From contig JBFMDQ010000004.1 of NCBI GenBank assembly GCA_040753955.1, forward strand, positions 5,889 through 69,888: DNA of 64,000 nt, in the 5' to 3' direction. Within the stretch, counting starts at the first letter, position 1. Every line of letters begins with the position of its first letter. The position numbers and the translations under genes were made by a program. Positions 5,778-63,032 of this stretch are shown piece after piece. The stretch is from Nitrospirota bacterium. Lineage in GTDB: Bacteria > Nitrospirota > Thermodesulfovibrionia > Thermodesulfovibrionales > SM23-35. The notes under the pieces are model-generated. The model did no database searches. It was not told the origin of the DNA and worked only from the letters and a program-made list of their open reading frames with translations.

Positions 5778-7902
5778 ATATAAATTTTATATTAAACCCT
5801 AACCTTCTCTCATCACCAAAATCAAGCTTTTTCACGAATAGAAATGCTGTGCCCTGATAGATTCTCTCCACACCCTGCTCTGAAAGGGATATGGTCTCTA
5901 CAGGATAGTGCCAGAGATCTATCTCTTCATCAAAATTATAACCAATGCTGAGGTTCAAAGACTCATCCTTCAGATAAAACTCCTTAACATCACCATGGGT
6001 TCCCTTGTTCCTTATAGGGAGATTTTTATCACCCACAAGGATGGAAGAATAGGGAGAGCCGAAAAAGGAGATGTTAAACTCTACAGCAAAAAGTCCGGAA
6101 AATACACCATCAATTTTGTAACCTACCCTCAGTTCCAGAGGCATAGTTAATCTCAATGTCTTCAGAAGTTTTAAAGGATTGCCATTCACGATACCCTTTC
6201 TAAAAAGGTCCACGGTAACAGTATCTCCCTCTTTAATGTAATTCAATGAATAGATACCTTCAATGAAGTCACCCTGTTCCTCATACCTGGAATGCATCAG
6301 ATCGTCAACATTTGTGCCGTCCCTCAGAAAATGGTCAAGGAGTGATGCCCGCCTGTAATTGTCATAGACCATATAATCGATGATGTCTACTTCTTTTACA
6401 ATGAACTGTTCATGAATAGTCCTCGTCTCACCTGTATTAGAAACTGATGCCTGCGCGATCCTTGAATGGTAGGCCTCGGGCCTCCTCGCAATGATGTCAA
6501 GTATATTAATAGCCTTTTCCTTCAGAGATAGTTCTCTAAGGCTACCCCCCTGTTCTGTTAGCGAAAGTGAGATATCCCCCTCGCTAATATAAATATCTTC
6601 AAAACCATCACAATCATAGTCAGACCTTTCTACAGTTAATTTCTCACTAAGTACGCCTTCAGCTATGCCCTCTGCCCTCAGGAGATGCCTGTAAAGGGAT
6701 GACCTCAGGTGAGGCAGATAAAGTCCGCCAAAGATGCCGTGCCAGTAGGCATCATTACATTGGCCCTTCCAGAGCTCATGCAATAACCCCCCTATTTCCC
6801 CCCTTAGTAAGGGGGGAAATGAAGGGGGGTGAACGTTTAACTTTGAACTTTCAACTTTTAACTTTTTTATTGCTCTATGTACTTTTTTACTTATCATTAA
6901 CATGCGTTTCTGGATGTGGTTTGACTCAGGATATTTTGCGAAAAAGGAACGCCATATCCCACCTCTCAGGAGGCTCTTTGCCTTGTCCCCTATCAATCTT
7001 TGCATCTCCCTCAATGCATATTCATAATCGAGTGCCCTTTCAGGAGGAAGCACCCACTCACCCATTTCCCTGTATGATGCTGTGGGAAGATAAACCCTCC
7101 CTACAGGCCGAAACCGAGAATGATAGTCGCTGAATGTTGTCGTCTCTATCCAGTCAGAATTTTCTTCAATGGCATTAAAGAATCTTTCAAGCCAGCCATC
7201 TTCATAGCAGTGCTTGTAGGTTCCAGGCCATACACCAAACTTTTCTCCATCATCTGCCATTGTAAGCAATGGTTTGCCACCCCTCATGTGTATCTCTCCG
7301 GAGTATGAGAGAATTTCATCAATATTCCTGAAAGGTATATAATATCTCAGTTTCTCGCTACCTGGAAATACGCTGAGCTTACAGCCTTCTTCTTCTGTGA
7401 TGTAATAGCCTAAAAGGTCTTCCTCTTCAAGACCTGAAAGCTTGAAATGATAATCATCAACCGGCACATACTCGATGCCAGCTGTCGAGATATATTTTGG
7501 CATCTGTGGTTCCCATACCCTCTCTGCCAGCCACATGCCCTTTGGTGAATAGCCGAGGAGCTTTTTGATATACCCGGAGAGTTCCTTTATCTGAGATACC
7601 CTGTCCTTTTCCGGAATCGCGGAGAGTATTGGCTCGTAAAAACCTCCCGAGAGTATCTCGACCCTTTTCGCCGAGACGAGAGAATGGATCATTTCAAGGG
7701 CTTCGGGATGGCGTTTTTCAAACCATGAGAGGAGATTACCCGAATAATGAAGCACAACCTTTAATGAGGGATGAAGGTTGAGGACTTCGAGAAAAGGCAG
7801 ATAAGCCTTTCTATAAGATTCCTCAAATATATGTTCGAAATTTCCTACAGGTTGATGATTATGGATTGCAAGGATTAAATAGAGCTTTGAATTATTTACC
7901 AG
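5767..7902 (-). CDS. glycoside hydrolase family 57 (alpha-glucan processing enzyme); probable CTG start
   Basis: GH57 hallmarks: HNHQPVGNF (encoded upstream of the ORF-track start), WLAERVWEP, CNDAYWHGIFGGLYLPHLR. The frame is open from the TAA at 7923-7921, and the conserved N-terminus KLYLILAIHNHQP lies at 7890-7756. The only plausible start is CTG 7902-7900, 6 nt after GGAGGA (7914-7909). Confidence 0.8.
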   Translation of the reverse strand: MVNNSKLYLILAIHNHQPVGNFEHIFEESYRKAYLPFLEVLNLHPSLKVVLHYSGNLLSWFEKRHPEALEMIHSLVSAKRVEILSGGFYEPILSAIPEKDRVSQIKELSGYIKKLLGYSPKGMWLAERVWEPQMPKYISTAGIEYVPVDDYHFKLSGLEEEDLLGYYITEEEGCKLSVFPGSEKLRYYIPFRNIDEILSYSGEIHMRGGKPLLTMADDGEKFGVWPGTYKHCYEDGWLERFFNAIEENSDWIETTTFSDYHSRFRPVGRVYLPTASYREMGEWVLPPERALDYEYALREMQRLIGDKAKSLLRGGIWRSFFAKYPESNHIQKRMLMISKKVHRAIKKLKVESSKLNVHPPSFPPLLRGEIGGLLHELWKGQCNDAYWHGIFGGLYLPHLRSSLYRHLLRAEGIAEGVLSEKLTVERSDYDCDGFEDIYISEGDISLSLTEQGGSLRELSLKEKAINILDIIARRPEAYHSRIAQASVSNTGETRTIHEQFIVKEVDIIDYMVYDNYRRASLLDHFLRDGTNVDDLMHSRYEEQGDFIEGIYSLNYIKEGDTVTVDLFRKGIVNGNPLKLLKTLRLTMPLELRVGYKIDGVFSGLFAVEFNISFFGSPYSSILVGDKNLPIRNKGTHGDVKEFYLKDESLNLSIGYNFDEEIDLWHYPVETISLSEQGVERIYQGTAFLFVKKLDFGDERRLGFNIKFIYDS
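6787..6829. repeat. 43-bp nested polyC/polyG palindrome (copy in GH57)
   Basis: Structure C6-TATTT-C6-TTAGTAA-G6-AAATGAA-G6. It is followed at 6830-6880 by AACTTT-type short repeats. Translated on the - strand as KLKVESSKLNVHPPSFPPLLRGEIGG. Confidence 0.85.
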
Positions 7903-9683: not shown

Positions 9684-9720
9684 AGAACCCCATGGGCTTA
9701 AAGGGTCTAAACTACAAATT

Positions 9721-10557: not shown

Positions 10558-10567
10558 CCTTTCAACC

Positions 10568-10593
10568 GTCATTCCCACGAAAGTGGAAATGAC
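10568..10593. repeat. minimal GTCATT...AATGAC hairpin (rfbD-rfbB spacer)
   Basis: GTCATTCCCACGAAAGTGGAAATGAC, which is the termini only. Confidence 0.7.
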
Positions 10594-10648
10594 AAAAGAG
10601 AGGGAACGAAAACAATTAAAAGTAAAAATTAAAAGACCGGTGAATTGA

Positions 10649-11605
10649 ATGAAAAAGCTTCTTGTTACAGGTGGAGCTGGCTTTATAGGAAGTGAATTTG
10701 TCAGACAGGGAGTCAAGCATGGATATGAGATAGTAGTGGTTGATAAGCTCACATATGCCGGGGATTTAAGGAGAATAAAGGAGGTTGAGAAGGAGATAAC
10801 TTTTTATAGAGCGGACATTTCAAATAAAGAATCTTTGGAGTATATTTTTGCTAAAGAAAAACCAGATTCTGTCATACACTGGGCAGCAGAAAGTCATGTT
10901 GATAGAAGCATATGGGATGCCTCACCCTTTTTAGAGACAAACGTAAAGGGGGCCCAGATTTTGCTTGAGATTTCTAAGCGTTATCGAATAGAGAGATTCA
11001 TAAACATATCAACGGATGAAGTATATGGAGAACTTAAGGGCAGAGGTAATTTTTATGAAACATCCCCTCTAAATCCCAATTCTCCCTATTCAGCAACCAA
11101 GGCTTCTGCTGACATGTTAGCAAGGGCCTATTTTAGGACCTATGGTGTGCCCGTGATAACAGTGAGGCCATCAAATACCTATGGTCCATTCCAGTATCCC
11201 GAAAAACTCATTCCCGTAGTTATCAGCAGGGCAATAGACAATAAGCCCGTCCCTGTATATGCAAAAGGTAAAAATGTGAGGGAGTGGCTCTATGTGGAGG
11301 ATTGTGTAAGTGGCACTTATGCTGTGCTGGAGAAGGGAAAGATCGGGGAAATTTACAATTTAGGGAGCGGACAGGAGAGGAGAAATATAGATGTAGTAAG
11401 GAGGATTCTTTTTATCCTCGGTAAATCCGAGAGCTTGATAGAGTTTGTTCAGGACAGACCAGGGCATGACTTCAGATACAGTTTGAACTCGGAGAAGATA
11501 AAAAATGAACTTGGCTTTGAGGCTGAAACAGGATTTTATGAGGGATTAGAAAAGACCATCCGATGGTATGTGGATAATGAATGGTGGTGGAGAAGGCTCC
11601 TGTAA
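10649..11605 (+). CDS. rfbB: dTDP-glucose 4,6-dehydratase
   Basis: GGAGFIGS, STDEVYG and YSATKASAD (YxxxK) SDR motifs. Confidence 0.95.
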   Translation: MKKLLVTGGAGFIGSEFVRQGVKHGYEIVVVDKLTYAGDLRRIKEVEKEITFYRADISNKESLEYIFAKEKPDSVIHWAAESHVDRSIWDASPFLETNVKGAQILLEISKRYRIERFINISTDEVYGELKGRGNFYETSPLNPNSPYSATKASADMLARAYFRTYGVPVITVRPSNTYGPFQYPEKLIPVVISRAIDNKPVPVYAKGKNVREWLYVEDCVSGTYAVLEKGKIGEIYNLGSGQERRNIDVVRRILFILGKSESLIEFVQDRPGHDFRYSLNSEKIKNELGFEAETGFYEGLEKTIRWYVDNEWWWRRLL

Positions 11606-11606
11606 G

Positions 11607-12722
11607 ATGAGACTTGCATTTATAAAAAAGAGTTTCTCTATTCACGGCGGGGCAGAAAGGTACCTCCAAGCACTCGTAACAAATTTAAAAAGTGCAGGCC
11701 ATGAAATACACATCTTTGCAAATCAATGGTCAGGAGAAAATGGTATTTTTTTTCACAAAGTCGACACCCTATCCCTTAGTTCATTTCTCTCTGTTATAAC
11801 TTTTAATAAAAATGTTAAAAGGGCAATCAAGAAAGATAGTAGACCTGACTGTTTGATAAGTTTTGAACGAACTACCTGTCAGGATATATATAGAGCTGGG
11901 GAAGGGTGCCATTCAGAATGGCTTGAAATAAGATCAAAATTTGAGCCTCTCTACAAAAGATTGTCATTCAAAATAAATCCCCTTCATACCTCCCTGATCA
12001 ATCTGGAAAAGAGACTTTTCTCTAATACCAGACTTATACTTGCCAATTCAAAAATGGTAAAGGAGCAGATTATAAAACACTATGCCGTCCCGGAGGAAAG
12101 GATAACTGTAATTTATAACGGAGTTGATTTGATGAGGTTTTCCCCAGAAAATAAAGACAAATGGCATAGGGATGTAAGAAGGAGTCTTAACATATCAAAT
12201 GATCCAAAGGTGTTGCTCTTTGTTGGCTCTGGCTTCAAAAGAAAGGGGCTAAAAACCCTTATAAATGCTATCCCTATAATAAAAAGAGAGGATATTAAAG
12301 CTCTGATTATCGGCAAGGGTGATGTGAACGAATACAAGACCTTGGCAGAAAAGTACGGTATCTCTGATAAAATCATCTTCCTTGGAGCTCAAAAAGAGAT
12401 AGAAAAATTCTATGCAGCAGCAGACCTTTTTATATTGCCAACCCTTTATGATCCATTTAGCAATGCTACCTTAGAGGCAATGGCATCAGGTCTTCCTGTA
12501 ATTACAACAAGAAATAACGGGATGGCTGAACTCATAGAAAACGGACATGAGGGCTTTGTTCTGGATAACCTTTTCGATGCACAGGAATTAGCTGATAAGA
12601 TATCTCTCTCCTTAGGCAATATTGCACATGTGGGAGAAAAGGCAAGAAAAAAGGCAGAGAAATTTCCCATAGAAAAAGCTGCCTGTGAATTCATGGAGAT
12701 CATAAAGCAAGCTGTAAAATAA
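11607..12722 (+). CDS. GT4 glycosyltransferase (RfaG/WaaG-like)
   Basis: GT-B GT4 pattern: HGGAERY N-terminus, FVGSGFKRKGL, and the EX7E region PTLYDPFSNATLEAMASGLPVITT. Start set to ATG 11607 (MRLAFIKK), just after the rfbB stop. Confidence 0.8.
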   Translation: MRLAFIKKSFSIHGGAERYLQALVTNLKSAGHEIHIFANQWSGENGIFFHKVDTLSLSSFLSVITFNKNVKRAIKKDSRPDCLISFERTTCQDIYRAGEGCHSEWLEIRSKFEPLYKRLSFKINPLHTSLINLEKRLFSNTRLILANSKMVKEQIIKHYAVPEERITVIYNGVDLMRFSPENKDKWHRDVRRSLNISNDPKVLLFVGSGFKRKGLKTLINAIPIIKREDIKALIIGKGDVNEYKTLAEKYGISDKIIFLGAQKEIEKFYAAADLFILPTLYDPFSNATLEAMASGLPVITTRNNGMAELIENGHEGFVLDNLFDAQELADKISLSLGNIAHVGEKARKKAEKFPIEKAACEFMEIIKQAVK

Positions 12723-12729
12723 TTCATAA

Positions 12730-13812
12730 ATGCTTACCATACTTCATACAGAGGCATCACTGGGCTGGGGAGGTCAGGAGATCAGGATTCTTCATGAATC
12801 TCTGGGTATGATAAAAAGAGGATATAAGGTTTTAGTTGCCTCACCTGGAGAGAGTACTATTTCTAAAAAGGCAAAGGAAGCCGGCATAAATGTCTCACCT
12901 GTATATTTTCAGAAAAGGAATCCAACTTCTATATTAAAAATGGTCTCATTGCTTAATAGAGAAAAATTCAACATCATCAATACTCATAGCTCTTCTGATA
13001 GCTGGGTTGCAACTATAGCAGCAAAAATATCTCCAAACAAACCGAAGATTATCAGAACCAGACATCTTTCTACACCCATAAGTAACTCATTTCTCAGTCG
13101 TTTAATCTATGACATATTGCCCGATGCTTTGGTTACCACAGGTGAGTCTATAAGAGAGAGAATGATAAATTACAATAGATTTGATGCCTCAAAGATTTAC
13201 TTAATCCCTACGGGCATAGACTTGAAGCAATTCGACCCTGCAAGAGTAAGGCGTGCATTTTACACAGATTGCTTTTCCGTTGGGATGGTTGGTGTATTAA
13301 GAAGCTGGAAAGGCCACAGATATTTTCTCGAAGCAATTCCCATTATACTAAAACAAATACCTGATGCATATTTTTATATAGTAGGCGATGGACCTCAAAG
13401 GGAAAACATTACAAATCTCATTAAAAAACTTAATTTACAGGAGAAGGTCGTTTTACTCGGTCACAGAGAAGATATTCCTGAAATAATGGCATCTCTTGAT
13501 GTTATTGTCCACCCTTCATATGCAAATGAGGGTGTTCCTCAGTCAATACTTCAAGCTATGGCAATGGAGAAACCCGTGGTAGCCTCTGATGCAGGGTCTA
13601 TAAAAGAGGTTGTCATAAATAAAGAGACAGGTTTTCTCACAAAGCCTAAAAATCCAGAACAGCTTGCAGAAAAGGTTATTGAGCTTTACAAACATCCTGA
13701 ATACAAAAAAGAATTCGGGAAGAAAGGCAGAAAACTCGTTGGGGAGAATTATTCCTTAGAAGACATGCTTGATAAAATAGAATCACTATATAAGAAGCTT
13801 TTAAACCATTAA
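12730..13812 (+). CDS. GT4 glycosyltransferase
   Basis: WGGQEIRIL N-terminus and PSYANEGVPQSILQAMAMEKPVVASD EX7E-type motif. Confidence 0.85.
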   Translation: MLTILHTEASLGWGGQEIRILHESLGMIKRGYKVLVASPGESTISKKAKEAGINVSPVYFQKRNPTSILKMVSLLNREKFNIINTHSSSDSWVATIAAKISPNKPKIIRTRHLSTPISNSFLSRLIYDILPDALVTTGESIRERMINYNRFDASKIYLIPTGIDLKQFDPARVRRAFYTDCFSVGMVGVLRSWKGHRYFLEAIPIILKQIPDAYFYIVGDGPQRENITNLIKKLNLQEKVVLLGHREDIPEIMASLDVIVHPSYANEGVPQSILQAMAMEKPVVASDAGSIKEVVINKETGFLTKPKNPEQLAEKVIELYKHPEYKKEFGKKGRKLVGENYSLEDMLDKIESLYKKLLNH

Positions 13813-13824
13813 GAATAGTTTAGA

Positions 13825-14811
13825 ATGAAGATTCTTCTTTCGGTTCCCGGACATTTAAAGACTGTGCCGATGAATGATTATGTATTCAGAACTCTGAAAG
13901 AAATGGGGCATGAAGTAAGGCTTTTTAATTTTGGTGCTCATGGATTCTATCAACAAATTCTCAAAAAAATCTCTGAAGAGAGGTTTTTTAGTTACATAAA
14001 CAGGAAAGTTGAAGGATTAGTGAACAATTTCAGGCCCGATGTATTCTTTACAATCTGTGGATTTGATCATGGGAGAACAAGTATAGAATACATAAAGAAT
14101 AAATGTGTCCTTACAATCTGCTGGTGGCTTAATGACCCTTTCCAGCTTAAGAGGTCATTAAGACAAGCAGCCTTTTATGACTATTACTTTACAAATTCAA
14201 AGGGAACGATTAAAGATTACTATGCTAACAACATAAAAAATGTCTTCTATCTGCCTGTAGGCTGTTATCCACCTGTTCACCGAAAACTCATGAATGAAGA
14301 TAATAGATATGATGTCTGCTTTGCAGGTGATTGGCATCATGTGCGAGAAGAGATATTAAGTTCTCTTGCGCAGGACTTCGATGTCTCGATTTTCGGCCCG
14401 TGGAAGAAAAAAATAAACAAAAATTCCCATCTCACAAAAAATGTGGTAAGAGATGGATTCTTTTCACCTGAAGAGATGGTAAATATATTCAACCAATCAA
14501 AGATTATACTTAACATCCATACATGGCTTGGAAAATGGGACTATGGTATAAACCCCCGTATATTTGAGGCAAATGGCTGTGGTGCATTTCAGGTCTCTGA
14601 TTATAAAGAAGAGATACCTGAACTTTATGAGCCCGAGAGGGAAATTGTTCTTTATAAAAACACAGGGGAACTCAGAGAAAAAATATCCTTTTTTCTCACC
14701 CACGACAAAGAGAGGATTGATATAGCAGAAAAGGGTCTTCTAAAAACATTGAGATACCATACATATGAACAGAGACTTAGGGAGATGTTCCAAATTGCCC
14801 GCCTTGAATGA
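13825..14811 (+). CDS. CgeB-like glycosyltransferase (Glyco_trans_1_2-type C-terminal domain)
   Basis: C-terminal NPRIFEANGCGAFQVSDY...YHTYEQRLREMF resembles the CgeB/DUF3880-type family. Paralogous C-termini occur at 24139-25098 and 20679-21713. Confidence 0.6.
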   Translation: MKILLSVPGHLKTVPMNDYVFRTLKEMGHEVRLFNFGAHGFYQQILKKISEERFFSYINRKVEGLVNNFRPDVFFTICGFDHGRTSIEYIKNKCVLTICWWLNDPFQLKRSLRQAAFYDYYFTNSKGTIKDYYANNIKNVFYLPVGCYPPVHRKLMNEDNRYDVCFAGDWHHVREEILSSLAQDFDVSIFGPWKKKINKNSHLTKNVVRDGFFSPEEMVNIFNQSKIILNIHTWLGKWDYGINPRIFEANGCGAFQVSDYKEEIPELYEPEREIVLYKNTGELREKISFFLTHDKERIDIAEKGLLKTLRYHTYEQRLREMFQIARLE

Positions 14812-15614
14812 TTAAAGATTTCCGTAATTATCACAGTCTTTGATGGAGTTTGCGTTTTCTAAAGAATATCAAAAATAGTTATTTTTAACAGTTTTTGCTA
14901 AACTAAAATATTCTTTATTTATGCTATTTAAACTGCATTTAGGTATATATATCGTTGCTGTCCAAGATATTTTGAAATATGGTTCTCTTATTTTGGACAA
15001 GTCTTTATTATATATATTAAACAATGGGCTTTTTATGCCCCTTTAAAAAAATTATTTGCAATGCATGAATTCAAAGACGTTAAAAAAATCCTTGTTATAA
15101 AACTCAGGCACATTGGAGATGTCGTTCTTTCCATACCTGTGTTCAGGGCTTTACGTGAAAATTTTCCAAAAGCGCATATTTCAGCCTTTGTGAATTCAGG
15201 TACAGAGGATGTACTGACAGGGAATACACTTATTGATGAGATAATAGTATTTGATAGAAATATCAAAAAGATGAATCCTTTGCAGAGATATATTAACGAG
15301 CTACTATTCTTGAAATCAGTTAGGAGGAGAAAATTTGATATGACAGTTGACCTCACAAGTGGAGACAGGGCGGCGATAATATCCCTTGTTTCAGGTGCAA
15401 AGTACAGGCTTGCATACGATCCTGGCAAAGACGGGTTTTTGGGAAAGAAATATCTTTATACCCATCTTGCAAAGAAGGATGGTAGTCAGCATATGGTACT
15501 ACAGAATCTTGGCGTTGTCAGGCATTTTGGAATAAACACAGAAAATCTTTCTGTAGATTTTCATATTCCAGAAAAAGACAGGGTCTGGATTAGAAAAGTC
15601 CTTGAAGAAAATAA

Positions 15615-15653
15615 CCCCCCCTTACCCCCCTTTACTAAAGGGGGGACGGGGGG
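15615..15653. repeat. polyC/polyG palindrome (39-bp variant) at the first frame break of the GT9 gene
   Basis: Structure C7-TTA-C6-TTTACTAAA-G6-AC-G6. Frame-1 reading is NPPLPPFTKGGTGG*. Confidence 0.85.
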
Positions 15654-15840
15654 TTAAGGAATACTGTTGTACACGTTCATCCGACATCAAGGTGGCTATT
15701 CAAATGCTGGAAAGATGAGTATATGTCAGAAGTGATAAGCTGGCTTGTTGAACAGGGGGTAAAGGTAACAGTGACATCCTCGCCTGATAAAAGAGAAATG
15801 GAAAAAGCAAAGAGAATTTTGTCTTTAATCTCCGAATTTA

Positions 15841-15883
15841 CCCCCCCTTTGCCCCCCCTTGGCAAGGGGGGGCAAAGGGGGGG
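15841..15883. repeat. 43-bp perfect nested polyC/polyG palindrome at the second frame break of the GT9 gene
   Basis: Structure C7-TTTG-C7-TTGGCAA-G7-CAAA-G7. Reading is TPPLPPLGKGGQRGGN* (frame 0) or ARGGKGGVI (frame 1). Confidence 0.9.
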
Positions 15884-16189
15884 TAATTGACCTGTGTGGT
15901 CAAACTACCATAAAACAACTTGCTGCAATCTCAGAGGCATCTGACCTATTTCTTGGAGTTGATTCTGCTCCGATGCATATAGCGGCTGCTGTAGGGACAT
16001 CTGTTATCGCCCTTTTTGGTCCGACAGGTGAGGCCCAGTGGGGGCCATGGGGAGACAGGCATGTGGTTTTAAACAAGATAGAGTCGTGCACTGATTGCAA
16101 GTTTGACGTATGCGAGAATGCCGGCGTAAGGAAATGTCTTGAAATTATAACGGTGGAGGAAGTTATTACTGCCATTACAAAGATATTGA

Positions 16190-17290
16190 ATGGATAAAAA
16201 CTTTACAAACCTGATAGTTAAAGCTATTATAACTATCTCACAGAAACTAAATATTCCTGCAAGAAATGTAAGAAATCCCACTTCTCCATCTTTTCTCATA
16301 ATTTGTCAAACAAGGGTTGGAGACACTGTATTTTCGTTGCCAGCTATTAGGGCCTTACGGGAAGAGTTTCCGCAAAGCTATATTGGAATATTAACAAACT
16401 ATGTAGGGTTGGAGATATTTAAACATAATCCAGATATTAATGATATTTTTGTCCTTAAAAAGGAAGGAATATGTATTTATCATCTCTTTCCGTCTTAAAA
16501 CTGATGAGAAAGAAGCATATAGATACTGTATTTGTATTCAATGCCGTTGACCGCATTATATGGCCATTATGCTTTTTTACCGGTGCATCGCAGATAGTCG
16601 GCTTGCATGGGCAGAATAAGGGACTTGATTTCCTCCTCACACATATTGTTCATCTGCCAGAAGGGTTACATGCTGCAGAATGGAGACTTAAATTGCTTGA
16701 GCAGATAGGCATTATAAAATCCAGTGCAGCAGCTTCAATTTATCTATCTCAAGATGAGAAAGAACAGATGAGGCAATTTTTATGTAACAATGGCATATCA
16801 GAGAAAAAGCCATTAATTGGGTTTCACCCCGGCGCAGATGGTTTATATAGATGCTGGCCTGCTGAAAAATTCATAGAGGCTGGTAATATATTAACAGAAA
16901 GATTAAGTGCACAAATCGTTATTACAGGGGGGCCTGGCGAAGGAGATTGGCTAATATAATTGCTTCTGCGATAAAAGGCGCTATATCTTTTGCTGGAGAG
17001 CTCTCTTTAAGAGATACTATTGCGCTTATAGAGAGAATGGATTTGTTTATTGTCGGCGACACTGGCCCTATGCATATAGCAGATGCACTAAGAACGCCAA
17101 TGATAACCCTCTTTTGTCCTTCCGAGCCCAAAATAACCGGGCCTTATCACGCAGAGAAGGCAATAATAGTAAAAAAACCATGCCGTGTAATCCGTGTAAA
17201 TTAACTAATTGTAATAATAATTTTTGTATGGAGCAAATAACTGTAGAAGAAGTTGTTAATCACGCCAGAAGATTACTGTGTAAAGAGTAG
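16190..17290 (+). pseudogene. decayed GT9 heptosyltransferase-family paralog (three frameshifts)
   Basis: Four collinear fragments in frames 2,1,0,2 (16190-16498, 16471-16959, 16947-17204, 17171-17290). They align end to end with the intact neighbour 17295-18422, e.g. DRIIWPLCFFTGASQIVGLHGQNKGLDF vs DRIIWPISFLTGAAEIIGIEGQNKGLDF and CMEQITVEEV vs CMEQIKVEEV. Confidence 0.8.
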
Positions 17291-17294
17291 AGCC

Positions 17295-18422
17295 ATGAGA
17301 AAATTACATCAAAAAACCAAAAATTTCGCAATTAAAACAGTTATAAATCTGATAAAACAGATGAATCTTGTTGACATAAATTATTGTGCAGTACCATCCA
17401 AATTCCTTGTTATCAGTACTACTGGCATCGGAGATACACTATGGGGAACTCCTGCAATCAGGGCATTAAAGGAAACCTATCCCGAATGTTATATAGGAGT
17501 TCTGACAAACCCTGCAGGATTTGAGCTCCTTCGGGAGAATCCGAACATAGATGGGCTGTTCATTTTCAGAAGGGGATTAAAGGGAATTCTTTCATTACCA
17601 ATCCTGTTAAGGGCACTCAGACAGAAAAGGTTTGAAATAGTTTTTATATTTCATGCCTCTGACCGTATTATATGGCCAATAAGTTTTTTAACAGGAGCAG
17701 CCGAAATCATTGGCATTGAAGGACAGAACAAGGGGCTTGATTTTGTGCTTACACGGAGACTCGCACCACAGAATAATATACATGGTATAGAGGCAAGATT
17801 AAACCTTATTAATTTGATAGGAGCCGAAACTTCTAATAAGAGCATCTCTATTTATTTAACAGAGAAAGACAGAGAGACAGCTGAAAGATTTTTAAGAGAT
17901 AATGGTATTACTCAGGATACATTATTAGTGGGTCTTCATCCGGCTGCACAGAAGCCTTTTAAATGCTGGCCTCAGGAGAATTTTATAACTCTTGGGAATA
18001 CACTTACAGAAAGATTTAAATGCAGAATTATAATAACCGGTGACTCTGGGGAAAAGGCACTGGCTGATATGGTATCTTTAAAAATAAATGATTCAATCAC
18101 TTTCGCAGGGAAATTAACTATCAGAGAGACCGCAGCATTGATAGAAAGATTGAATATATTTATTACCAATGATACAGGTCCCATGCATATTGCATTTGCC
18201 CTGAAAACACCCACTATAGCCCTCTTTTGCCCGACAGACCCCAAGCTCTGTGGTCCTTATCATACAGAAAGAGTTGTTATAATAGAAAAACCAAAGACAT
18301 GCAATCCATGCATCGGGAAAAAATGTGATACCCCCAGATGTATGGAGCAAATTAAAGTTGAAGAGGTACTGGAATCAGTGAAATCTTTATTAAACTCAAA
18401 GATCAGGGACAATATAAAATGA
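17295..18422 (+). CDS. GT9 glycosyltransferase (heptosyltransferase family), intact
   Basis: GIGDTLWGTPAIRAL N-domain, NDTGPMHIAFALKTPTIALFCPT C-domain, CNPCIGKKCDTPRCM tail. ATG 17295 chosen because the ORF-track TTG at 17253 overlaps the pseudogene tail. Confidence 0.8.
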   Translation: MRKLHQKTKNFAIKTVINLIKQMNLVDINYCAVPSKFLVISTTGIGDTLWGTPAIRALKETYPECYIGVLTNPAGFELLRENPNIDGLFIFRRGLKGILSLPILLRALRQKRFEIVFIFHASDRIIWPISFLTGAAEIIGIEGQNKGLDFVLTRRLAPQNNIHGIEARLNLINLIGAETSNKSISIYLTEKDRETAERFLRDNGITQDTLLVGLHPAAQKPFKCWPQENFITLGNTLTERFKCRIIITGDSGEKALADMVSLKINDSITFAGKLTIRETAALIERLNIFITNDTGPMHIAFALKTPTIALFCPTDPKLCGPYHTERVVIIEKPKTCNPCIGKKCDTPRCMEQIKVEEVLESVKSLLNSKIRDNIK

Positions 18423-19891
18423 CTGAAAAAGTGACCCCGCCAAAAGAAATCAGAAGCGGATTTCCGAGGGTAAGCATCATAATACTCAACTGGAACAAAC
18501 TCGAATACCTGAAACAGTGCATTGAGAATGCTGTCAAAAATACCGATTATCCAAATTATGAGATTATCGTCCTCGATAATGCTTCGACTGAAACCGGCAC
18601 AAGAGAGTATCTTGAATCCCTGCCTTATATATCTATTATGAGTCCAGTAAATCTCGGGTTTGGAAAAGGCAATAATAAGGCTGCAAGGGCAGCTTCAGGT
18701 GAATATCTGCTTTTGCTAAATAATGATACAATTCCAAAACATGACTGGCTTACGCCAATGGTTGACCTGATGTTGAATACTCCCGGATGCGGTATTGTCG
18801 GAAGCAAGCTTCTATATCCTGACGGGACAATTCAGCACATAGGAGTATATATGGATTTTAAGGGAAGGAGAAAACACTATTTTAAAAAGTATCCTGCTAA
18901 TATCCCAGAAGCACTCGAAGTCAGAGAATGCGAGGCAGTTACCGCAGCATGTCTGCTTATTAAAAAATCTGTTTTCGAAAAAGTCGGTGGCTTTGATGAA
19001 CGATATATCCAGGGAGTCGAGGATATGGACCTCTGCTTAAAAGTCAGAGAATTAGGTTATAAGATATTTTTCTGTCCACATAGTGTTTTAATCCACTTTG
19101 AAGGTTCGAGCATGAAGGATATGGTGGACAAACAGCGAAAAAAAAATAAGAAAAGAAACGACAGGAACAATGAAAAGATTTTCCATAAAAAATGGGGCAA
19201 AAAAATTGATAGCTTCATGCTTGAGCTTCATCCGTGGAAATTCAAGTCATACTCTTATTACACCAGAGAATTCTCACATATCGTAAACTTGATCCCCCCT
19301 ACCGCAAAAAACATACTTGATGTTGGCTGCGGGGCAGGATTGTGCGGCAAAGAAATACGAGGAGCCGGCATTCGTGGAAATATAGTAGGTATAGAAATAA
19401 ACCCGGTTGTTGCCAAAGACGCTGAAATGCATATGGACAGGGTTATTGTGGGAGATGTTGAGAACCTTGATATACCGGGAGACACCAAATTTGATTGTAT
19501 TATATTAGGCGACATTCTGGAGCATCTTATAGACCCATGGACGATACTAAGGAAATTAAGTGAATGTTTATCGGAAGACGGGATTGTCATTGCGAGCATT
19601 CCGAATATCCGGCATTACAAAATAATAAAAGACATTCTCAGGGACAGATGGTTTTATCGTAAAGACGGGATTTTGGACGGCGGACACCTGAGATTCTTTG
19701 GCATCTCTACAATAAAACACATGTTTTCTGTATCAAGGCTTGATATTGTTAAGACAGAGCGATTACAAAAGGCAGAAGGTTTTATGAAATTGCTGAACAA
19801 GATTTTAGCGGGCAAGCTGAATGAATTCCTGACTTATCAATACCTGATAGTGGCAAAGAGAAAAAAGACCATGGGTAACAGGGGATTTTAG
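18419..19891 (+). CDS. bifunctional GT2 glycosyltransferase / class I SAM-dependent methyltransferase
   Basis: N-terminal VSIIILNWNKLEYLKQCI..IIVLDNASTE..EDMDLC (GT2, DxD). C-terminal ILDVGCGAGLCG..ILGDILEHL (SAM-binding motif I and post-I). ATGA overlap with the preceding GT9 gene. Confidence 0.8.
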   Translation: MTEKVTPPKEIRSGFPRVSIIILNWNKLEYLKQCIENAVKNTDYPNYEIIVLDNASTETGTREYLESLPYISIMSPVNLGFGKGNNKAARAASGEYLLLLNNDTIPKHDWLTPMVDLMLNTPGCGIVGSKLLYPDGTIQHIGVYMDFKGRRKHYFKKYPANIPEALEVRECEAVTAACLLIKKSVFEKVGGFDERYIQGVEDMDLCLKVRELGYKIFFCPHSVLIHFEGSSMKDMVDKQRKKNKKRNDRNNEKIFHKKWGKKIDSFMLELHPWKFKSYSYYTREFSHIVNLIPPTAKNILDVGCGAGLCGKEIRGAGIRGNIVGIEINPVVAKDAEMHMDRVIVGDVENLDIPGDTKFDCIILGDILEHLIDPWTILRKLSECLSEDGIVIASIPNIRHYKIIKDILRDRWFYRKDGILDGGHLRFFGISTIKHMFSVSRLDIVKTERLQKAEGFMKLLNKILAGKLNEFLTYQYLIVAKRKKTMGNRGF

Positions 19892-19892
19892 C

Positions 19893-20660
19893 ATGAAATT
19901 AGCTGTCTTTTTTGACAAATTTGCACCTATTCATGAGACAAAAGACCCCGGTCAAATTGTGCAGGGATTAATAGACATCGGGATACAAAGCGAGCTGTTC
20001 ACAATAGATAAGCCTGCATTAAGGAAAGGCTTTCCTTCTATTCCAATCAGACTATTATTAATGGAGCAGGCATCCGATGTTGAATACTGGCGTGGTGTTC
20101 CTTATGATGTAATTGTTGCATATACAAGGTTATATTCACAGATTGCTTATACATTAAAAAAAGCCAGTAAAACAGTCTTAGTAAAGGCTGACACCGACGG
20201 CAGACGCATTTTTCCTATATATCCGAGAGACATGTCATATTATCCGTTTAAGAAAGCAACAGAAAAAATTAAAATTTTTTATAAAAGGGTCAAAAGACGG
20301 TTAGAAGGCCGGACCCGTGCCAACAAGCTTGCCGAACACATAAATCTTGCAGATGGCGTAATAGTGGAATCTCCGCAGGCATATATCAACCTTGCTTACA
20401 TATTGTCATATTGGGAGATGCCGGAATTAATCAAAAAAATCTTTGTTATCCCAAATCCAGTCTCTGATTATTTTACTGCAACTCCACTATCTATTAAAAA
20501 CAAACTGATAGTAGCAGTTGGAGAATGGGATGGAAGGGTTGGCAGCTCGTATATAAAGAATACAGACACGATGGTTAAAGCGCTATGGTTGCTGCATCGA
20601 GAAGTAATTGCAAAAAGCTATTTACAGACAGCAGAGCAATTGTGGGAAAGAGCAACATAA
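19893..20660 (+). CDS. hypothetical protein, possibly a C-terminally truncated GT-B (GT4-like) glycosyltransferase
   Basis: Resembles a GT4 N-domain and ends shortly after IPNPV...LIVAVGEW, where a GT4 C-domain would begin. No EX7E region is present. Weak, pattern-based call. Confidence 0.35.
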   Translation: MKLAVFFDKFAPIHETKDPGQIVQGLIDIGIQSELFTIDKPALRKGFPSIPIRLLLMEQASDVEYWRGVPYDVIVAYTRLYSQIAYTLKKASKTVLVKADTDGRRIFPIYPRDMSYYPFKKATEKIKIFYKRVKRRLEGRTRANKLAEHINLADGVIVESPQAYINLAYILSYWEMPELIKKIFVIPNPVSDYFTATPLSIKNKLIVAVGEWDGRVGSSYIKNTDTMVKALWLLHREVIAKSYLQTAEQLWERAT

Positions 20661-20678
20661 TTTAACAGGATATTTACA

Positions 20679-21713
20679 ATGGAAGCTTACAAAGACAGAA
20701 AACCCAGAATTCTTATTTTTAAAGAAAGCATGGGCGGAGATCTGCAATTCTTAATGGAAACGGATGTCGCAGAGGTCTATGTCAGGAGCGCAGCGGATTA
20801 TTTTACCGAGAAGAAGAAGTTATTAAATAAAGAATATGATTTTATATTAGCAACCCCTTGGCGAGATCCTGTTTGGCATAGTGGCCGTCCATTTGTAAAA
20901 AATTGCTTTAGGGCAATAACAACACTTATTAAAAAACCGTCAACTTATTTTCCGGTGGTTTTGAGAAGATTAGTGCAAAAGACCGGAATGCGGCTTGGAA
21001 TAGTTGACTCAATTGATGCGCCGCTGATAGCAAAAAGGAATTTCGGGCTGTTGGATGTGTGTCATCGGTATTTTAAAAGGGAATTGCCCCAGAATCACTA
21101 CAATATATTTTTGTATACAACAGCAAGAAATAAGGACGCAGTAAACATTGTCCGGCAGGATTTTTTTCTGAAAAATGAAAGAAAATTAAGGCCAATACAA
21201 TTTGGGATTTCTGACAAGAAGTTTAATTTGGTAGAGCTTGAAAAGAACGAGAAAGAATACGATATTTTTTATGCGGGCAAGTCACATTATTGTACCGTAA
21301 GACAAAATGGCATTAAAGAGCTTCTACAGCTGAAGGGAGAGGGTGTGAGGGTTTATTTACCTGAGGAGAGGTTATCGCCGGAAGATTTTTACAGGGCATG
21401 CGGCAAGTCACGGTTAGTGTTGTCACCAGCAGGGTTGGGGTAGGATTGCAATCGGCATTATGAGGCTCTTGCCGCAGGAGCAGTGCCGGTGATAAATTAT
21501 CCGTGGATTGAACAATATTCAGCTTTTATTGATAGAGAACACTGCTTTTACTATGGTGTGGAGCCGTATGGATTGTTTAAAACAGTAAAAGAGGCATCGA
21601 AAGACAAGGAGCGGTTGAAGAAGATGAACGCCAATGGGCGGGAATGGATAATGAAAAATCTGACATTTAACCGCATTCTTGAATATGTTATCAAAGAAAT
21701 GATGAGCGATTAG
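20679..21713 (+). pseudogene. CgeB-like glycosyltransferase interrupted by a single in-frame TAG (21441-21443)
   Basis: ORFs 20679-21443 and 21483-21713 are in the same frame. The sequence reads ..LVLSPAGLG*DCNRHYEALAAGAVPVINYP.. straight across the stop. Paralog 13825-14811 has W at the matching spot (GKWDYG..RIFEANGCGAF). Confidence 0.6.
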
Positions 21714-21764
21714 AATTTTTAGGCTCTTTCTCATTTCAAGGGGCAGAAAAGGCAGGCAATTAAA

Positions 21765-56783: not shown

Positions 56784-56824
56784 CCCCGCCATCCTCCCCT
56801 TAGTAAGGGGAGGTTAGGGAGGGG
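56784..56824. repeat. degenerate member of the polyC/polyG palindrome family in the convergent MBL/fabF gap
   Basis: CCCCGCCATCCTCCCC-TTAGTAA-GGGGAGGTTAGGGAGGGG, with the same TTAGTAA loop as copy 6787-6829. It overlaps the last fabF codons (..KTPP*) and is a possible bidirectional terminator. Confidence 0.65.
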
Positions 56825-61718: not shown

Positions 61719-63032
61719 TTGCTCCAGGTGGTAGAAGATATCAGTCCGACAAAGAAGCGTCTCAGGGTAGAGATTCCATCAGACGTGATCGAAAAGGAGA
61801 TAAAGGATTCTCTCGAAAGGTTAAGACAGAAAACTAATATACCGGGGTTCAGGCCTGGCAGGGCTCCAGTTAATCTAATAGAAAAACGCTTCGGCAAAGG
61901 GGTTGAAGCAGAGGTACTTGATAAGGTAATCTCTGAATATTACAGCAAGGCATTAAAAGAAGCTGAACTCATACCTGTAACAATGCCTGTATTTGATGAG
62001 AAGCTTGGCTTTAAAAGAAACAATCCACTTAATCTTTCATTCACGGTTGAAGTGATGCCGAAGATTGAGAATCTTAATTACGAAAATATAAAGATAAAGG
62101 ATATTCCTATAGTTGTCGATGAGGCTGAGGTAGATGATTACATTAAAAAACTCCAGGATAAAAAGGCTATATATGAAGTTGCTGAAAAAGATGTAGATAT
62201 GGATGACCTTGTCACATTTGAGTATGTAGACTGTAAAATGATCGGGGAAGAAAGCCCCCCATCCATAAAGGAACAGATATTGAAGATGGGTAAAGAGATA
62301 TTCCCCCTGGACATAATGGAAAGAGTGATGGGGAAGAAAAAGGGCGAGGTAGTGGAGTTCACTACCACATTCAATGAAGGTTGTAAGTCAAAAGAACTTG
62401 CGGGAAAGACGGTTGATATGAAAGTTATGATAAAGGAGGTAAAGCAGAAAATCCTACCGGCAATTGATGATGAATTTGCAAAGGATCTTGGTTTTGAAAA
62501 TATCTTGGAATTGAGAGAAAGGATAAAAGAAGATATATATAAAGCTAAAAAAGAACAGGCTATGAAAATCCAGAAGGCAGAGATTCTCCATAAGATTATT
62601 GAGCCCCATGATTTTGAGGTACCAGAAACCCTGCTCAGAAATGAGCTGGAATCCCTTATGATGCAAGAAAACACCCCCCTCACTCCCCCCTTACCAAGGG
62701 GGGAATTTAAGGGGGGTGATGCTGGCAGCCCAGAACAGGAAAAAGAGGATGTCGAAAACTTACAGGCTAAACTGAAACATAAGGCATTGAGGAACGTACA
62801 GGCATCGATAATTATAGATGCCATAGGCCAAAAAGAGGAAATCGCAGTAACAGAAGATGAAGTGAAGGATCGAATCCATTTTATAGCGGAAAGGCTCTCG
62901 GCCAAACCAGAGGTTGTCATGAAATTCTACATAGCGAGAGATGGCTCTCTGGAAGGCCTGAGGCATTCGATCTATGAGGATAAAGTCCTGGATATGCTTT
63001 TGTCCAAAGCCATTTCTGAGAAAGGAGAGTAG
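61719..63032 (+). CDS. tig: trigger factor (carries a 43-bp palindromic insertion)
   Basis: N-terminal ribosome-binding GFRPGRAP motif, PPIase-like middle, tig-clpP-clpX synteny. TTG start. Confidence 0.9.
   Translation: MLQVVEDISPTKKRLRVEIPSDVIEKEIKDSLERLRQKTNIPGFRPGRAPVNLIEKRFGKGVEAEVLDKVISEYYSKALKEAELIPVTMPVFDEKLGFKRNNPLNLSFTVEVMPKIENLNYENIKIKDIPIVVDEAEVDDYIKKLQDKKAIYEVAEKDVDMDDLVTFEYVDCKMIGEESPPSIKEQILKMGKEIFPLDIMERVMGKKKGEVVEFTTTFNEGCKSKELAGKTVDMKVMIKEVKQKILPAIDDEFAKDLGFENILELRERIKEDIYKAKKEQAMKIQKAEILHKIIEPHDFEVPETLLRNELESLMMQENTPLTPPLPRGEFKGGDAGSPEQEKEDVENLQAKLKHKALRNVQASIIIDAIGQKEEIAVTEDEVKDRIHFIAERLSAKPEVVMKFYIARDGSLEGLRHSIYEDKVLDMLLSKAISEKGE
62674..62716. repeat. 43-bp nested polyC/polyG palindrome (copy in trigger factor)
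   Basis: Structure C6-TCACT-C6-TTACCAA-G6-AATTTAA-G6. Translated in frame as TPLTPPLPRGEFKGG. Confidence 0.9.

What the first reader, a model, noticed from the sequence alone, without database searches (positions are those of the whole stretch)
15061..16197. GT9 heptosyltransferase-like gene split into three frames exactly at two polyC/polyG elements: candidate phase-variable LPS gene
The N-domain (frame 1), middle (frame 0) and C-domain (frame 1) are collinear GT9 sequence. The two flanks share a frame, while the middle is offset.

Junction 1 is repaired only by adding one G to either G6 tract at 15640-15645 or 15648-15653. The element starts with C7, so its mirror tract would be G7. This gives ..KGGTGGLRNTVVHVHPTSRW.. 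with no stop.

Junction 2 is repaired by removing one nucleotide anywhere between 15829 and 15887, i.e. in any of the four 7-nt C/G tracts.

Homopolymeric G/C tracts of this length in LOS/LPS glycosyltransferase genes are the classic slipped-strand phase-variation switch in Campylobacter, Helicobacter, Neisseria and Haemophilus. Here the tracts are delivered by a repeat element, and two compensating offsets would give four ON/OFF combinations.

Alternatives are a dead gene or homopolymer sequencing errors.
Basis: partly seen in the sequence, partly recalled or inferred. Interest (0 to 1): 0.7.

Follow-up and report, generated by a model that had tools for sequence, protein, structure and literature searches.

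The report
Heptosyltransferase gene broken at two hairpin repeats
An LPS heptosyltransferase gene in an uncultured Nitrospirota genome is broken by small deletions inside two tiny C/G-rich hairpin repeats that normally sit harmlessly in frame, so it looks like a freshly dead gene rather than an on/off switch.

Summary
Gene 15061-16197 is a collinear heptosyltransferase III gene in three frames. Both frame changes fall inside C/G-tract hairpins, e1 (15615-15653) and e2 (15841-15883).

The phase-variation reading is not supported.
- The hairpins belong to a dispersed repeat family. Two more copies in the window lie in frame in the GH57 and trigger-factor genes. Copies occupy the same two loops in many orthologues, read as PPxPP..GGxGG.
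- At e1 the window is 1 nt shorter than in-frame orthologues, within an inferred G7 run. That fits slippage.
- At e2 the in-frame orthologues also have four 7-nt tracts. The window differs in the spacers: TCACAT became TTTG (-2 nt) and CATA became CAAA. This makes a perfect 49-nt palindrome, which fits a template-switch mutation rather than slippage.
- About 76 distinct orthologous metagenome loci are all in frame.
- The adjacent GT9 gene carries three 1-nt deletions in A runs. Strains about 97% identical have it intact.
- The roughly 60 other genes are intact, and a second assembly gives the same sequence, so general assembly error is unlikely.
- Gene 1 is otherwise well conserved, so inactivation was recent.

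Best reading: a young pseudogene in a decaying GT9 cluster. Reversible switching cannot be excluded without reads.

The parts
15061..15657 (+). N-terminal fragment of the heptosyltransferase III gene (198-aa ORF). It holds the GT-B N-domain and ends at a TAA just after e1.
   Evidence: ORF list. Pfam GT9 profile positions 4-93. Annotated in NCBI as MEW6162049.1, hypothetical protein AB1606_01825.
15612..15656 (.). Element e1: a two-stem C/G hairpin repeat, TAA C7 TTA C6 TTTACTAAA G6 AC G6 TTA, with its core at 15615-15653.
   Evidence: Sequence. RNA fold -32.5 kcal/mol, z = -2.75. Homologous in-frame copies occupy the same codon position in L133, L008 and L007.
15646..15653 (+). Lesion 1: AC + G6, where in-frame orthologues have a 3-nt spacer + G6. 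The inferred change is G7 to G6, a 1-nt deletion.
   Evidence: Alignment of site 1. From AAT to TTAAGG there are 39 nt in L133 and L008 but 38 in the window.
15654..15887 (+). Middle segment of the gene, in the frame offset by one. It encodes LRNTVVHVHPTSRWLFKCWKDEYM... and contains family-invariant residues.
   Evidence: Translation. Pfam GT9 positions 107-162. Invariant columns in alignment A1.
15838..15886 (.). Element e2: a perfect 49-nt palindrome, TTA C7 TTTG C7 TTG G CAA G7 CAAA G7 TAA, with its core at 15841-15883.
   Evidence: Inverted repeat I1, 24-nt arms, 100% complementary. RNA fold -50.8 kcal/mol, z = -6.3.
15848..15851 (+). Lesion 2: the left spacer is TTTG where in-frame orthologues have TCACAT (2 nt longer). 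It is now the exact reverse complement of the right spacer CAAA (15873-15876), which is CATA in orthologues.
   Evidence: Site-2 alignment of the window with L140, L145, L133, L136, L005, L135 and L164. The tract lengths, 7/7/7/7, are identical in the in-frame copies.
15859..16197 (+). C-terminal fragment of the gene (112-aa ORF from TTG), in the same frame as the N-terminal fragment.
   Evidence: ORF list. Pfam GT9 positions 165-243. MEW6162050.1. 11 synonymous against 1 non-synonymous codon differences from strain L004.
16190..17290 (+). Second GT9 gene, also a pseudogene. It is split into four frames by 1-nt deletions in A runs at 16457-16461 (A5 against A6), 16939-16940 (A2 against A3) and 17171-17177 (A7 against A8).
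   Evidence: Alignment with L003 and L004, where the gene is an intact 365 aa (P0127, P0129). Codon analysis gives 16 synonymous and 13 non-synonymous differences plus indels. A-run coordinates.
17253..18422 (+). Third GT9 gene, intact. It is context for the cluster.
   Evidence: Pfam GT9 positions 5-242 of 247. NCBIfam hits.
6787..6829 (-). Element e3 (C6 TATTT C6 TTAGTAA G6 AAATGAA G6), in frame inside an intact GH57 amylase/4-alpha-glucanotransferase gene. It is read as PPSFPPLLRGEIGG.
   Evidence: Pfam shows about 20 extra residues in the middle domain. Fold -36.0 kcal/mol.
62674..62716 (+). Element e4 (C6 TCACT C6 TTACCAA G6 AATTTAA G6), in frame inside the intact trigger-factor gene. It is read as TPLTPPLPRGEFKGG.
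   Evidence: Fold -35.1 kcal/mol.
56784..56822 (.). Probable degenerate fifth copy (CCCCGCC ATC CTCCCC TTA.TAA GGGGAG GTTA GGGAGG), lying between two convergent genes.
   Evidence: Inverted repeat I9. ORF map. Not examined further.

Best explanation
This is a recently inactivated LPS heptosyltransferase III gene of a Nitrospirota (Thermodesulfovibrionia-like) MAG.

The gene carries two old, normally harmless passengers. They are ~40-45-nt C/G-tract two-stem hairpin repeats, translated in frame as Pro-Pro-x-Pro-Pro ... Gly-Gly-x-Gly-Gly peptides. They sit in two surface loops: the inter-domain linker, and the loop before the IDLCG strand.

In this lineage each passenger suffered a small deletion:
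- e1 lost one G from an inferred G7 run, which is replication slippage.
- e2 had its asymmetric left spacer TCACAT rewritten to TTTG, the exact complement of its right spacer. It lost 2 nt and became a perfect palindrome. This is the signature of an intra-hairpin (quasi-palindrome) template switch.

The two losses sum to -3, which is why the N- and C-terminal parts share a frame while the 62 codons between them do not. The product is truncated after the N-domain, so the enzyme is off.

The adjacent GT9 paralogue was lost earlier, through three A-run deletions and under relaxed selection. That probably released this gene from selection, and its most mutable sites failed first.

Shown: the frames, the element family, the orthologous in-frame states, the exact differences, the neighbour's decay and the integrity of the rest of the window. 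Inferred: the mutational mechanisms, the order of events and the loss of function.
For: Frames and collinearity. The repaired product is TIGR02201, 231.9 bits against a 170.2 cutoff.

Element family:
- Four clear copies in the window, two of them in frame in intact genes.
- In-frame copies in radical-SAM, CbiG, RecJ, PrmC and UvrA genes of other Nitrospirota.
- Orthologues with PPxPP..GGxGG inserts at the same two loops, and others without them.
- In an AlphaFold model (pTM 0.82) the two inserts are the low-confidence loops 187-198 and 261-270, between regular secondary-structure elements.

Lesions: the site-1 and site-2 DNA alignments.

Rarity: about 76 distinct orthologous loci keep the motifs KLRHIGD, HPTSRW and SAPMH in one frame, and all length differences are multiples of 3.

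Locus decay: the second GT9 gene is intact in L003 and L004 but has three A-run deletions here, with 16 synonymous and 13 non-synonymous codon differences.

Recent event: the gene-1 C-terminus shows 11 synonymous to 1 non-synonymous difference against L004. There is only one singleton substitution at otherwise invariant columns, no more than in intact orthologues.

Not an artefact: the Logan assembly of SRR29635779 is 100% identical over 9640-15645 and 15616-22197. All other suspicious ORF pairs in the window are complete, separate genes.
Against: - Outside the two lesions the gene shows no decay at all. That is equally expected for a gene kept under selection while switching ON and OFF.
- Both lesions lie in sequences that can in principle slip back: G6 to G7 at e1, and -1 in any of four 7-nt tracts at e2.
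- The Logan contigs break inside e1, which could reflect a length variant in the reads. A second element copy sharing the 30-mer explains the exact break points at least as well.
- The survey of orthologues is biased towards intact genes, because the best 80 tblastn hits were kept.
- The template-switch mechanism is inferred from the end state only. Gene conversion from another, unseen copy of the element is an alternative source of the perfect palindrome.
Confidence: 0.6

Rival explanations
1. This is a reversible phase-variable (contingency) gene. Slippage in the G/C tracts of the two elements turns the heptosyltransferase ON and OFF in the population, and the assembled consensus happens to be the double-OFF state.
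For: - The e1 lesion is a 1-nt loss in an inferred G7 run.
- e2 offers four 7-nt tracts in which a -1 slip would restore the frame.
- The gene is otherwise pristine: 11 synonymous to 1 non-synonymous difference, and one singleton change at invariant columns.
- It is an LPS glycosyltransferase, the classic class of phase-variable genes (established knowledge for Campylobacter, Helicobacter, Neisseria and Haemophilus).
- The Logan contig breaks inside e1.
Against: - The e2 lesion is a spacer rewrite, not a tract-length change. The 7/7/7/7 tracts are the conserved in-frame state.
- Two independent events are needed to reach ON.
- The tracts are only 6-7 nt. At e1 they are interrupted in orthologues (GGATGG, CGGGGA), so no long tract is being maintained.
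- About 76 distinct orthologous loci show no frame variation.
- The neighbouring gene carries three irreversible-looking frameshifts, including A3 to A2.
- The protein database holds no ON or half-ON variant of this allele. The best full-length hit is 72% identical.
Confidence: 0.2
2. This is an assembly or sequencing artefact. The real gene is intact, and the consensus is wrong at GC-rich hairpins and homopolymers, or is a chimera of co-occurring strains.
For: - Homopolymers and strong hairpins (-32 and -51 kcal/mol) are hard templates.
- The window is a MAG contig, and the LPS region is strain-variable (L004 carries a different repeat at site 2).
- Orthologues from long-read assemblies are indeed broken at these elements, together with many neighbouring genes.
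Against: - Two different assemblies of the sample give identical sequence, including all tracts.
- About 60 other genes in the window, many with A7-A8 and C/G runs, are intact.
- The e2 difference is a multi-base spacer change that no homopolymer miscount produces.
- 31-mers joining the unique left flank to the new spacer must exist in the reads for both assemblers to place them (inference from de Bruijn assembly).
- The neighbour's A3 to A2 deletion is not a typical homopolymer error.
Confidence: 0.07
3. The gene is expressed despite the frame breaks through recoding. The candidates are transcriptional slippage on the G/C runs, ribosomal frameshifting, or translational bypassing of the hairpins, as in T4 gene 60 or the GC-rich 'byp' inserts of Magnusiomyces mitochondria.
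For: - Very stable hairpins sit exactly at the frame changes.
- The -1 and -2 offsets sum to a whole codon, so the N- and C-terminal parts share a frame.
- The coding sequence is fully conserved.
Against: - Every other copy examined in accurate assemblies is simply in frame and needs no recoding.
- I found no matched take-off and landing codons flanking e2 that would land in the right frame (manual inspection).
- The 62 middle codons contain invariant residues, and reading them would need two separate recoding events.
- The neighbouring gene is decaying as well.
Confidence: 0.03

Closest known systems
Slipped-strand phase-variable LOS/LPS glycosyltransferase genes (contingency loci of Campylobacter, Helicobacter, Neisseria, Haemophilus)
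   Same: A surface-glycan transferase gene with intragenic poly-G/poly-C runs. One of the two frame breaks (e1) is a 1-nt loss in a G run.
   Different: The tracts are short (6-7 nt). They belong to a dispersed hairpin repeat rather than a dedicated tract. One lesion is not a tract-length change. Two events are needed to restore the frame. No ON/OFF polymorphism was seen among about 76 distinct orthologous loci. The flanking paralogue is decaying.
Rickettsia palindromic elements (RPEs) and intragenic REP/MITE copies (e.g. GTAG/CGTC REPs, Coxiella QMITEs)
   Same: Small palindromic repeats dispersed through a genome. They are found inside protein-coding genes, in frame, at positions tolerated by the protein, with presence/absence differences among orthologues. 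PMC3733652 reports REPs inside genes, many of them replication and repair genes. Here RecJ and UvrA are among the hosts.
   Different: These are much shorter than RPEs (~40-45 nt against ~100-150 bp). They have no GTAG or CGTC tag. They are defined by four C6-7/G6-7 tracts with poorly conserved spacers. No associated transposase, terminal inverted repeats or target-site duplication were identified.
Quasi-palindrome template-switch mutagenesis (Ripley model; studied in E. coli reporter systems)
   Same: An imperfect inverted repeat, seen in the orthologues, is replaced by a perfect one through a clustered multi-base change that copies one arm from the other, giving a frameshift.
   Different: Here it is inferred only from comparing species. 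The event itself was not observed, and gene conversion from another element copy is not excluded.
Small dispersed repeats of cyanobacteria (Elhai et al. 2008, Genome Res; recalled from memory, the paper could not be opened)
   Same: Very small hairpin-forming dispersed repeats. A related motif, (A/G)AT C6 N2-3 C6 TT..AA G6, is abundant in Nostoc, Microcoleus, Calothrix and Microcystis loci.
   Different: I could not check whether the published families include this motif. In my small sample the four-tract cyanobacterial copies (L031, L067, L071) do not sit inside long ORFs; the three-tract copies were not tested for coding context. The Nitrospirota copies are mostly in-frame intragenic inserts.

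Membership tests
Slipped-strand phase-variable (contingency) gene | A simple-sequence tract (a homopolymer, usually of 7-8 nt or more) lies within the reading frame. | tested here: met
   G6/G6/C6/C7 in e1 and C7/C7/G7/G7 in e2, all inside the gene.
Slipped-strand phase-variable (contingency) gene | The frame state is set by tract length, so the OFF allele differs from ON by repeat-unit number only. | tested here: not met
   This is true at e1 (one G short of the orthologues). At e2 the tract lengths equal those of the in-frame orthologues, and the difference is a 2-nt shorter, resequenced spacer.
Slipped-strand phase-variable (contingency) gene | Tract-length polymorphism occurs within a population or among close strains, giving both ON and OFF alleles. 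| not testable with these tools
   No read-level access. Indirect results: no ON or half-ON allele in the protein database. About 76 distinct orthologous loci are all in frame. The close strain L004 carries a different repeat at site 2.
Slipped-strand phase-variable (contingency) gene | A long uninterrupted tract is conserved across relatives. | tested here: inconclusive
   The e2 tracts of 7 are conserved in L140, L145 and L133. The e1 tracts are interrupted in L133 (GGATGG) and L008 (CCCCCT, TCCCGC, CGGGGA).
GT9 / putative LPS heptosyltransferase III (NCBIfam TIGR02201) | A full-length match above the curated cutoff. | tested here: met
   The conceptually repaired product scores 231.9 bits against a 170.2 cutoff, covering profile positions 1-343 of 344. 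The orthologues are named heptosyltransferase III by NCBI and JGI.
GT9 / putative LPS heptosyltransferase III (NCBIfam TIGR02201) | An intact reading frame encoding both Rossmann-like domains. | tested here: not met
   Three frames. The longest product is 198 aa and ends in e1.
Intragenic palindromic repeat elements (RPE-like / intragenic REP-like) | Multiple dispersed copies with hairpin potential. | tested here: met
   Four clear copies and one degenerate copy in 64 kb. Folds of -32 to -51 kcal/mol with z-scores of -2.8 to -6.3. Copies in other Nitrospirota MAGs.
Intragenic palindromic repeat elements (RPE-like / intragenic REP-like) | In-frame occupancy of coding sequences, with presence/absence among orthologues. 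| tested here: met
   e3 and e4 are in frame. The GT9 orthologues with and without inserts at the two loops differ by multiples of 3. Different sub-types occupy the same loop in different lineages.
REP / RAYT system | A GTAG or CGTC tetranucleotide tag at one end, and an associated RAYT transposase. | tested here: not met
   No GTAG or CGTC tag flanks the four copies; the flanks are TAA/TTA, ATAA, or ACA/TGA. The presence of a RAYT gene in the genome was not tested.
MITE | Terminal inverted repeats plus target-site duplication, and a cognate IS. | tested here: inconclusive
   The whole element is an inverted repeat. I could not define a consistent duplication: TA flanks at e2, none evident at e3 or e4. 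No parent IS was identified.
Quasi-palindrome template-switch mutation | The ancestral repeat is imperfect, and the derived allele has a clustered change that makes the arms exactly complementary. | tested here: met
   The orthologues have TCACAT ... CATA, which are not complementary. The window has TTTG ... CAAA, which are exact complements, giving a 49-nt perfect palindrome.

The most novel reading that the evidence does not exclude
The C/G-tract hairpins are an undescribed family of very small mobile or self-propagating elements. They settle in protein loops in a translation-compatible form, always readable as PPxPP..GGxGG. Because they combine homopolymers with a quasi-palindrome, they act as portable fragile or hypermutable cassettes. 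In this LPS gene they would provide a reversible ON/OFF switch delivered by a repeat, which would be the first such case in Nitrospirota.
Probability: 0.12. Interest if true: 0.65.

Novelty: new member of a known kind. Interest (0 to 1): 0.35.

Why it matters
For annotation: broken genes at such hairpins should be read against orthologous element copies before being called phase-variable or erroneous. Here that comparison separates a slippage lesion from a template-switch lesion.

For biology: this Nitrospirota lineage tolerates ~15-residue Pro/Gly loops from selfish hairpins in housekeeping proteins such as trigger factor, RecJ, UvrA, PrmC and GH57. These passengers are the first places where a gene fails once selection relaxes.

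If read data later showed length heterogeneity, it would extend repeat-delivered phase variation of LPS to an environmental phylum. As it stands, the case is a well-resolved young pseudogene and is not a surprise to a specialist.

Tried and rejected
1. General homopolymer or assembly error. Rejected: the ORF map and Pfam checks of ten suspicious ORFs show complete, separate genes, and the Logan assembly is identical.

2. Truncated orthologues P0132, P0133 and P0135 as evidence of recurrent OFF states. Rejected: their contigs (ENA ERZ25039515, ERZ1286166) have many split genes around them, which is typical of error-prone long-read assemblies.

3. Exact excision of the elements as mini-introns or bypass units. 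Removing the 43-nt core of e2 does restore the frame, but the 39-nt core of e1 does not. In-frame copies elsewhere have cores of 38, 39, 41, 43 and 45 nt. There is therefore no fixed excisable unit.

4. Known RNA family. Rfam at gathering thresholds finds nothing on the elements in the window or in eight other loci. The only hits were a tRNA and an unrelated HEARO RNA.

5. Literature. Seven full-text searches and two papers searched for terms gave no description of this C6/G6 motif. Elhai et al. 2008 could not be opened.

6. Looking for closer strains of gene 1. The fragment clusters have a single member. Strains L003 and L004 cover only the 3' end, and L004 has a different repeat at site 2 with a recombination-like drop in identity 5' of about 15920.

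7. Structural homology. PDB hits (3TOV, 1PSW, 2GT1) confirm GT9, but the alignment skips residues 171-279. AlphaFold was used instead to place the inserts in loops.
Full report
**Source and context**

The window comes from a metagenome-assembled genome labelled 'Nitrospirota bacterium'. Its proteins are NCBI MEW6162047-55, the locus tags are AB1606_018xx, and the contig is 77,755 nt. The finding sits in an LPS/glycan cluster of GT4, GT2 and three tandem GT9 genes.

- ORFs 15061-15657 and 15859-16197 share a frame. The stretch 15654-15887 is offset by one.
- The three pieces match Pfam GT9 profile positions 4-93, 107-162 and 165-243.
- Adding a G after 15645 and deleting one base at 15848 gives a 378-aa protein with no stop. 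It passes NCBIfam TIGR02201, putative LPS heptosyltransferase III, at 231.9 bits against a cutoff of 170.2.
- Both frame changes lie inside C/G-tract hairpins. e1 is C7 TTA C6 TTTACTAAA G6 AC G6 (15615-15653). e2 is C7 TTTG C7 TTGGCAA G7 CAAA G7 (15841-15883).
- e2 is a perfect 49-nt palindrome, the longest in the window.
- Such double C-tracts occur 9 times in the window against 0.03 expected by chance.

**What the elements are**

The window holds two more copies, and both are in frame in intact genes.
- Copy e3 (6787-6829) lies in a GH57 amylase/glucanotransferase gene and is read as PPSFPPLLRGEIGG.
- Copy e4 (62674-62716) lies in the trigger-factor gene and is read as TPLTPPLPRGEFKGG.
- A degenerate fifth copy lies between convergent genes at 56784-56822.

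As RNA the four copies fold at -32 to -51 kcal/mol.

Homologues of the GT9 protein come from Nitrospirota/Thermodesulfovibrionia MAGs at 57-72% identity and range from 353 to 444 aa. The alignment shows that the length differences concentrate at the same two positions. Many orthologues carry PPxPP..GGxGG inserts there, for example NNINPPCPPLSKGGEGGFNK and EFTPPHIPPLVRGGIGGVIDLCG. Others carry different repeat peptides or nothing.

In an AlphaFold model (pTM 0.82) the two inserts are the low-confidence loops 187-198 and 261-270. The first lies between helix 171-184 and strand 203-207. The second lies between helix 244-255 and strand 274-277.

In other Nitrospirota loci the same kind of element sits in frame in radical-SAM, CbiG, RecJ, PrmC and UvrA genes.

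The elements are therefore a dispersed hairpin repeat family that survives inside genes as short Pro/Gly loops. This is the same kind of thing as Rickettsia palindromic elements or intragenic REPs (PMC3733652, PMC3184786). I found no GTAG/CGTC tag, no clear target duplication and no associated transposase. No Rfam family matches. I found no published description.

**What actually broke the gene**

I fetched orthologous DNA by exact-protein look-ups and by one metagenome scan, then aligned the two sites.

- *Site 1.* L133 and L008 have 39 nt between AAT and TTAAGG, arranged as G6-N3-G6 with spacers ATG or ACG. The window has 38 nt (G6-AC-G6). The C7 on the left arises from a synonymous AAT to AAC change, not from slippage.
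- *Site 2.* The in-frame copies in L140, L145 and L133 read A C7 TCACAT C7 TTGGCAA G7 CATA G7 TA (45 nt). All four tracts are already 7 nt long in the functional state. The window differs only in the spacers. The left spacer changed from TCACAT to TTTG (-2 nt), and the right spacer from CATA to CAAA. The new left spacer is the exact reverse complement of the right one.

A clustered change that perfects an imperfect inverted repeat is the classical footprint of a quasi-palindrome template switch. That mechanism rests on established knowledge and is inferred here, not observed. Conversion from another element copy is the alternative.

The two lesions (-1 and -2) sum to -3. This explains why the flanks share a frame.

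**Is it a switch, a corpse or an error?**

*Error is unlikely.*
- An independent Logan assembly of SRR29635779 is identical over 9640-15645 and 15616-22197.
- Every other gene checked in the window is complete.
- The e2 change is not a homopolymer miscount.
- The Logan contigs do break inside e1 with a 30-nt overlap, which is k-1 for Logan's k=31 (from my own knowledge). The shared 30-mer is exactly the part of the element expected to recur in another copy, so a repeat branch explains the break without invoking length variants.

*Evidence against a dedicated switch.*
- One lesion is not tract-length based.
- Two events are needed to restore the frame.
- The tracts are only 6-7 nt, and at e1 they are interrupted in orthologues.
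- About 76 distinct orthologous metagenome loci keep three conserved motifs in one frame, with all insert-length differences being multiples of three. Among them 18 site-1 and 9 site-2 sequences carry such elements. This sample is biased towards intact genes.
- Truncated orthologues do exist, but they come from assemblies with many split genes around them.

*Evidence for decay of the locus.*
- The next GT9 gene (16190-17290) is an intact 365 aa in two strains about 97% identical (L003, L004).
- Here it has 1-nt deletions in A runs at 16457-16461, 16939-16940 and 17171-17177.
- Its ratio of 16 synonymous to 13 non-synonymous codon differences indicates relaxed selection.

*Evidence that gene 1 died recently, or is still under selection.*
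- Its C-terminal part shows 11 synonymous to 1 non-synonymous difference against L004.
- It has only one singleton substitution at otherwise invariant columns, no more than intact orthologues.

**Verdict**

The most likely account (about 0.6) is a young pseudogene. The paralogue was lost first, selection on this gene relaxed, and its two most mutable sites, the resident hairpins, failed first by two different mechanisms.

| Explanation | Confidence |
|---|---|
| Young pseudogene | about 0.6 |
| Reversible phase variation | about 0.2 |
| Assembly or sequencing artefact | about 0.07 |
| Recoding | about 0.03 |

Phase variation stays possible because the gene is otherwise pristine and slips could restore it. 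It needs read-level evidence that I could not obtain.

As a finding, this is an ordinary kind of event resolved in unusual detail. It sits on top of a moderately interesting and possibly undescribed intragenic hairpin repeat family.

Noticed in passing
Genome-contig loci L009-L128: The motif (A/G)AT C6 N2-3 C6 TT..AA G6 is spread across phyla. I saw it in many Cyanobacteria (Nostoc, Microcoleus, Calothrix, Microcystis, Lyngbya), Nitrospirota, Deltaproteobacteria/Desulfobacterota, Beta- and Gammaproteobacteria, Planctomycetota, Chloroflexota, Deinococcota and others. The 5' AAT/GAT flank is strikingly conserved. Whether this reflects one mobile family, convergence or a shared mechanism is unknown.
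   Followed up: partly
L108 (Microcystis ichthyoblabe chromosome NZ_CP191408.1, record range 3848001-3856000); also L033: At least twelve head-to-tail copies of a 37-nt unit, ATCCCCCCTTAGTCCCCCCTTGATAAGGGGGGTGCCG. This is the three-tract version of the motif arranged as a tandem array with no spacers.
   Followed up: no
GT9 orthologues P0003, P0015, P0001, P0006, P0002, P0010, P0026; L004:1-30: The same two loops, plus a third near the C-terminus, host other repeat-derived peptides in different lineages. Examples are SYQLSAISYQL, SRITHHASRL/SLVTRHSSLL (DNA is a GTCACTC 7-mer run in L004), GDSPDSTASPVNLGQS and QKSEVRSQKSE. These genomes therefore carry several families of intragenic repeats.
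   Followed up: no
window 15616-15645 (end of L001 / start of L002); start of L004: Short-read unitig assemblies (Logan) break inside repeat elements at these two loops: within e1 in the source sample, and within the GTCACTC repeat at the position corresponding to e2 in a related sample. These repeats fragment assemblies and can hide the state of the gene.
   Followed up: partly
L129, L130, L131 (ENA ERZ25039515, ERZ1286166): Orthologous GT9 genes in long-contig ENA assemblies are truncated at or near the elements. Neighbouring genes, such as APS kinase and GT4 genes, are split too. These are probably homopolymer errors, a caution against reading tract 'variation' from such assemblies.
   Followed up: partly
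window ~15888-15920 compared with L004: Identity to strain L004 drops from about 98% to about 80% just 5' of about 15920, and L004 carries a different repeat at site 2. This suggests a recombination boundary inside gene 1 between strains.
   Followed up: no
window 54514-54541: A perfect 28-nt palindrome, GTAGGGGCGTATAGCTATACGCCCCTAC, starting with GTAG. It resembles a GTAG-tagged REP and lies within or at the start of a coding region.
   Followed up: no
window 58891-58972 (-): A tRNA gene (Rfam RF00005, 60.6 bits).
   Followed up: no
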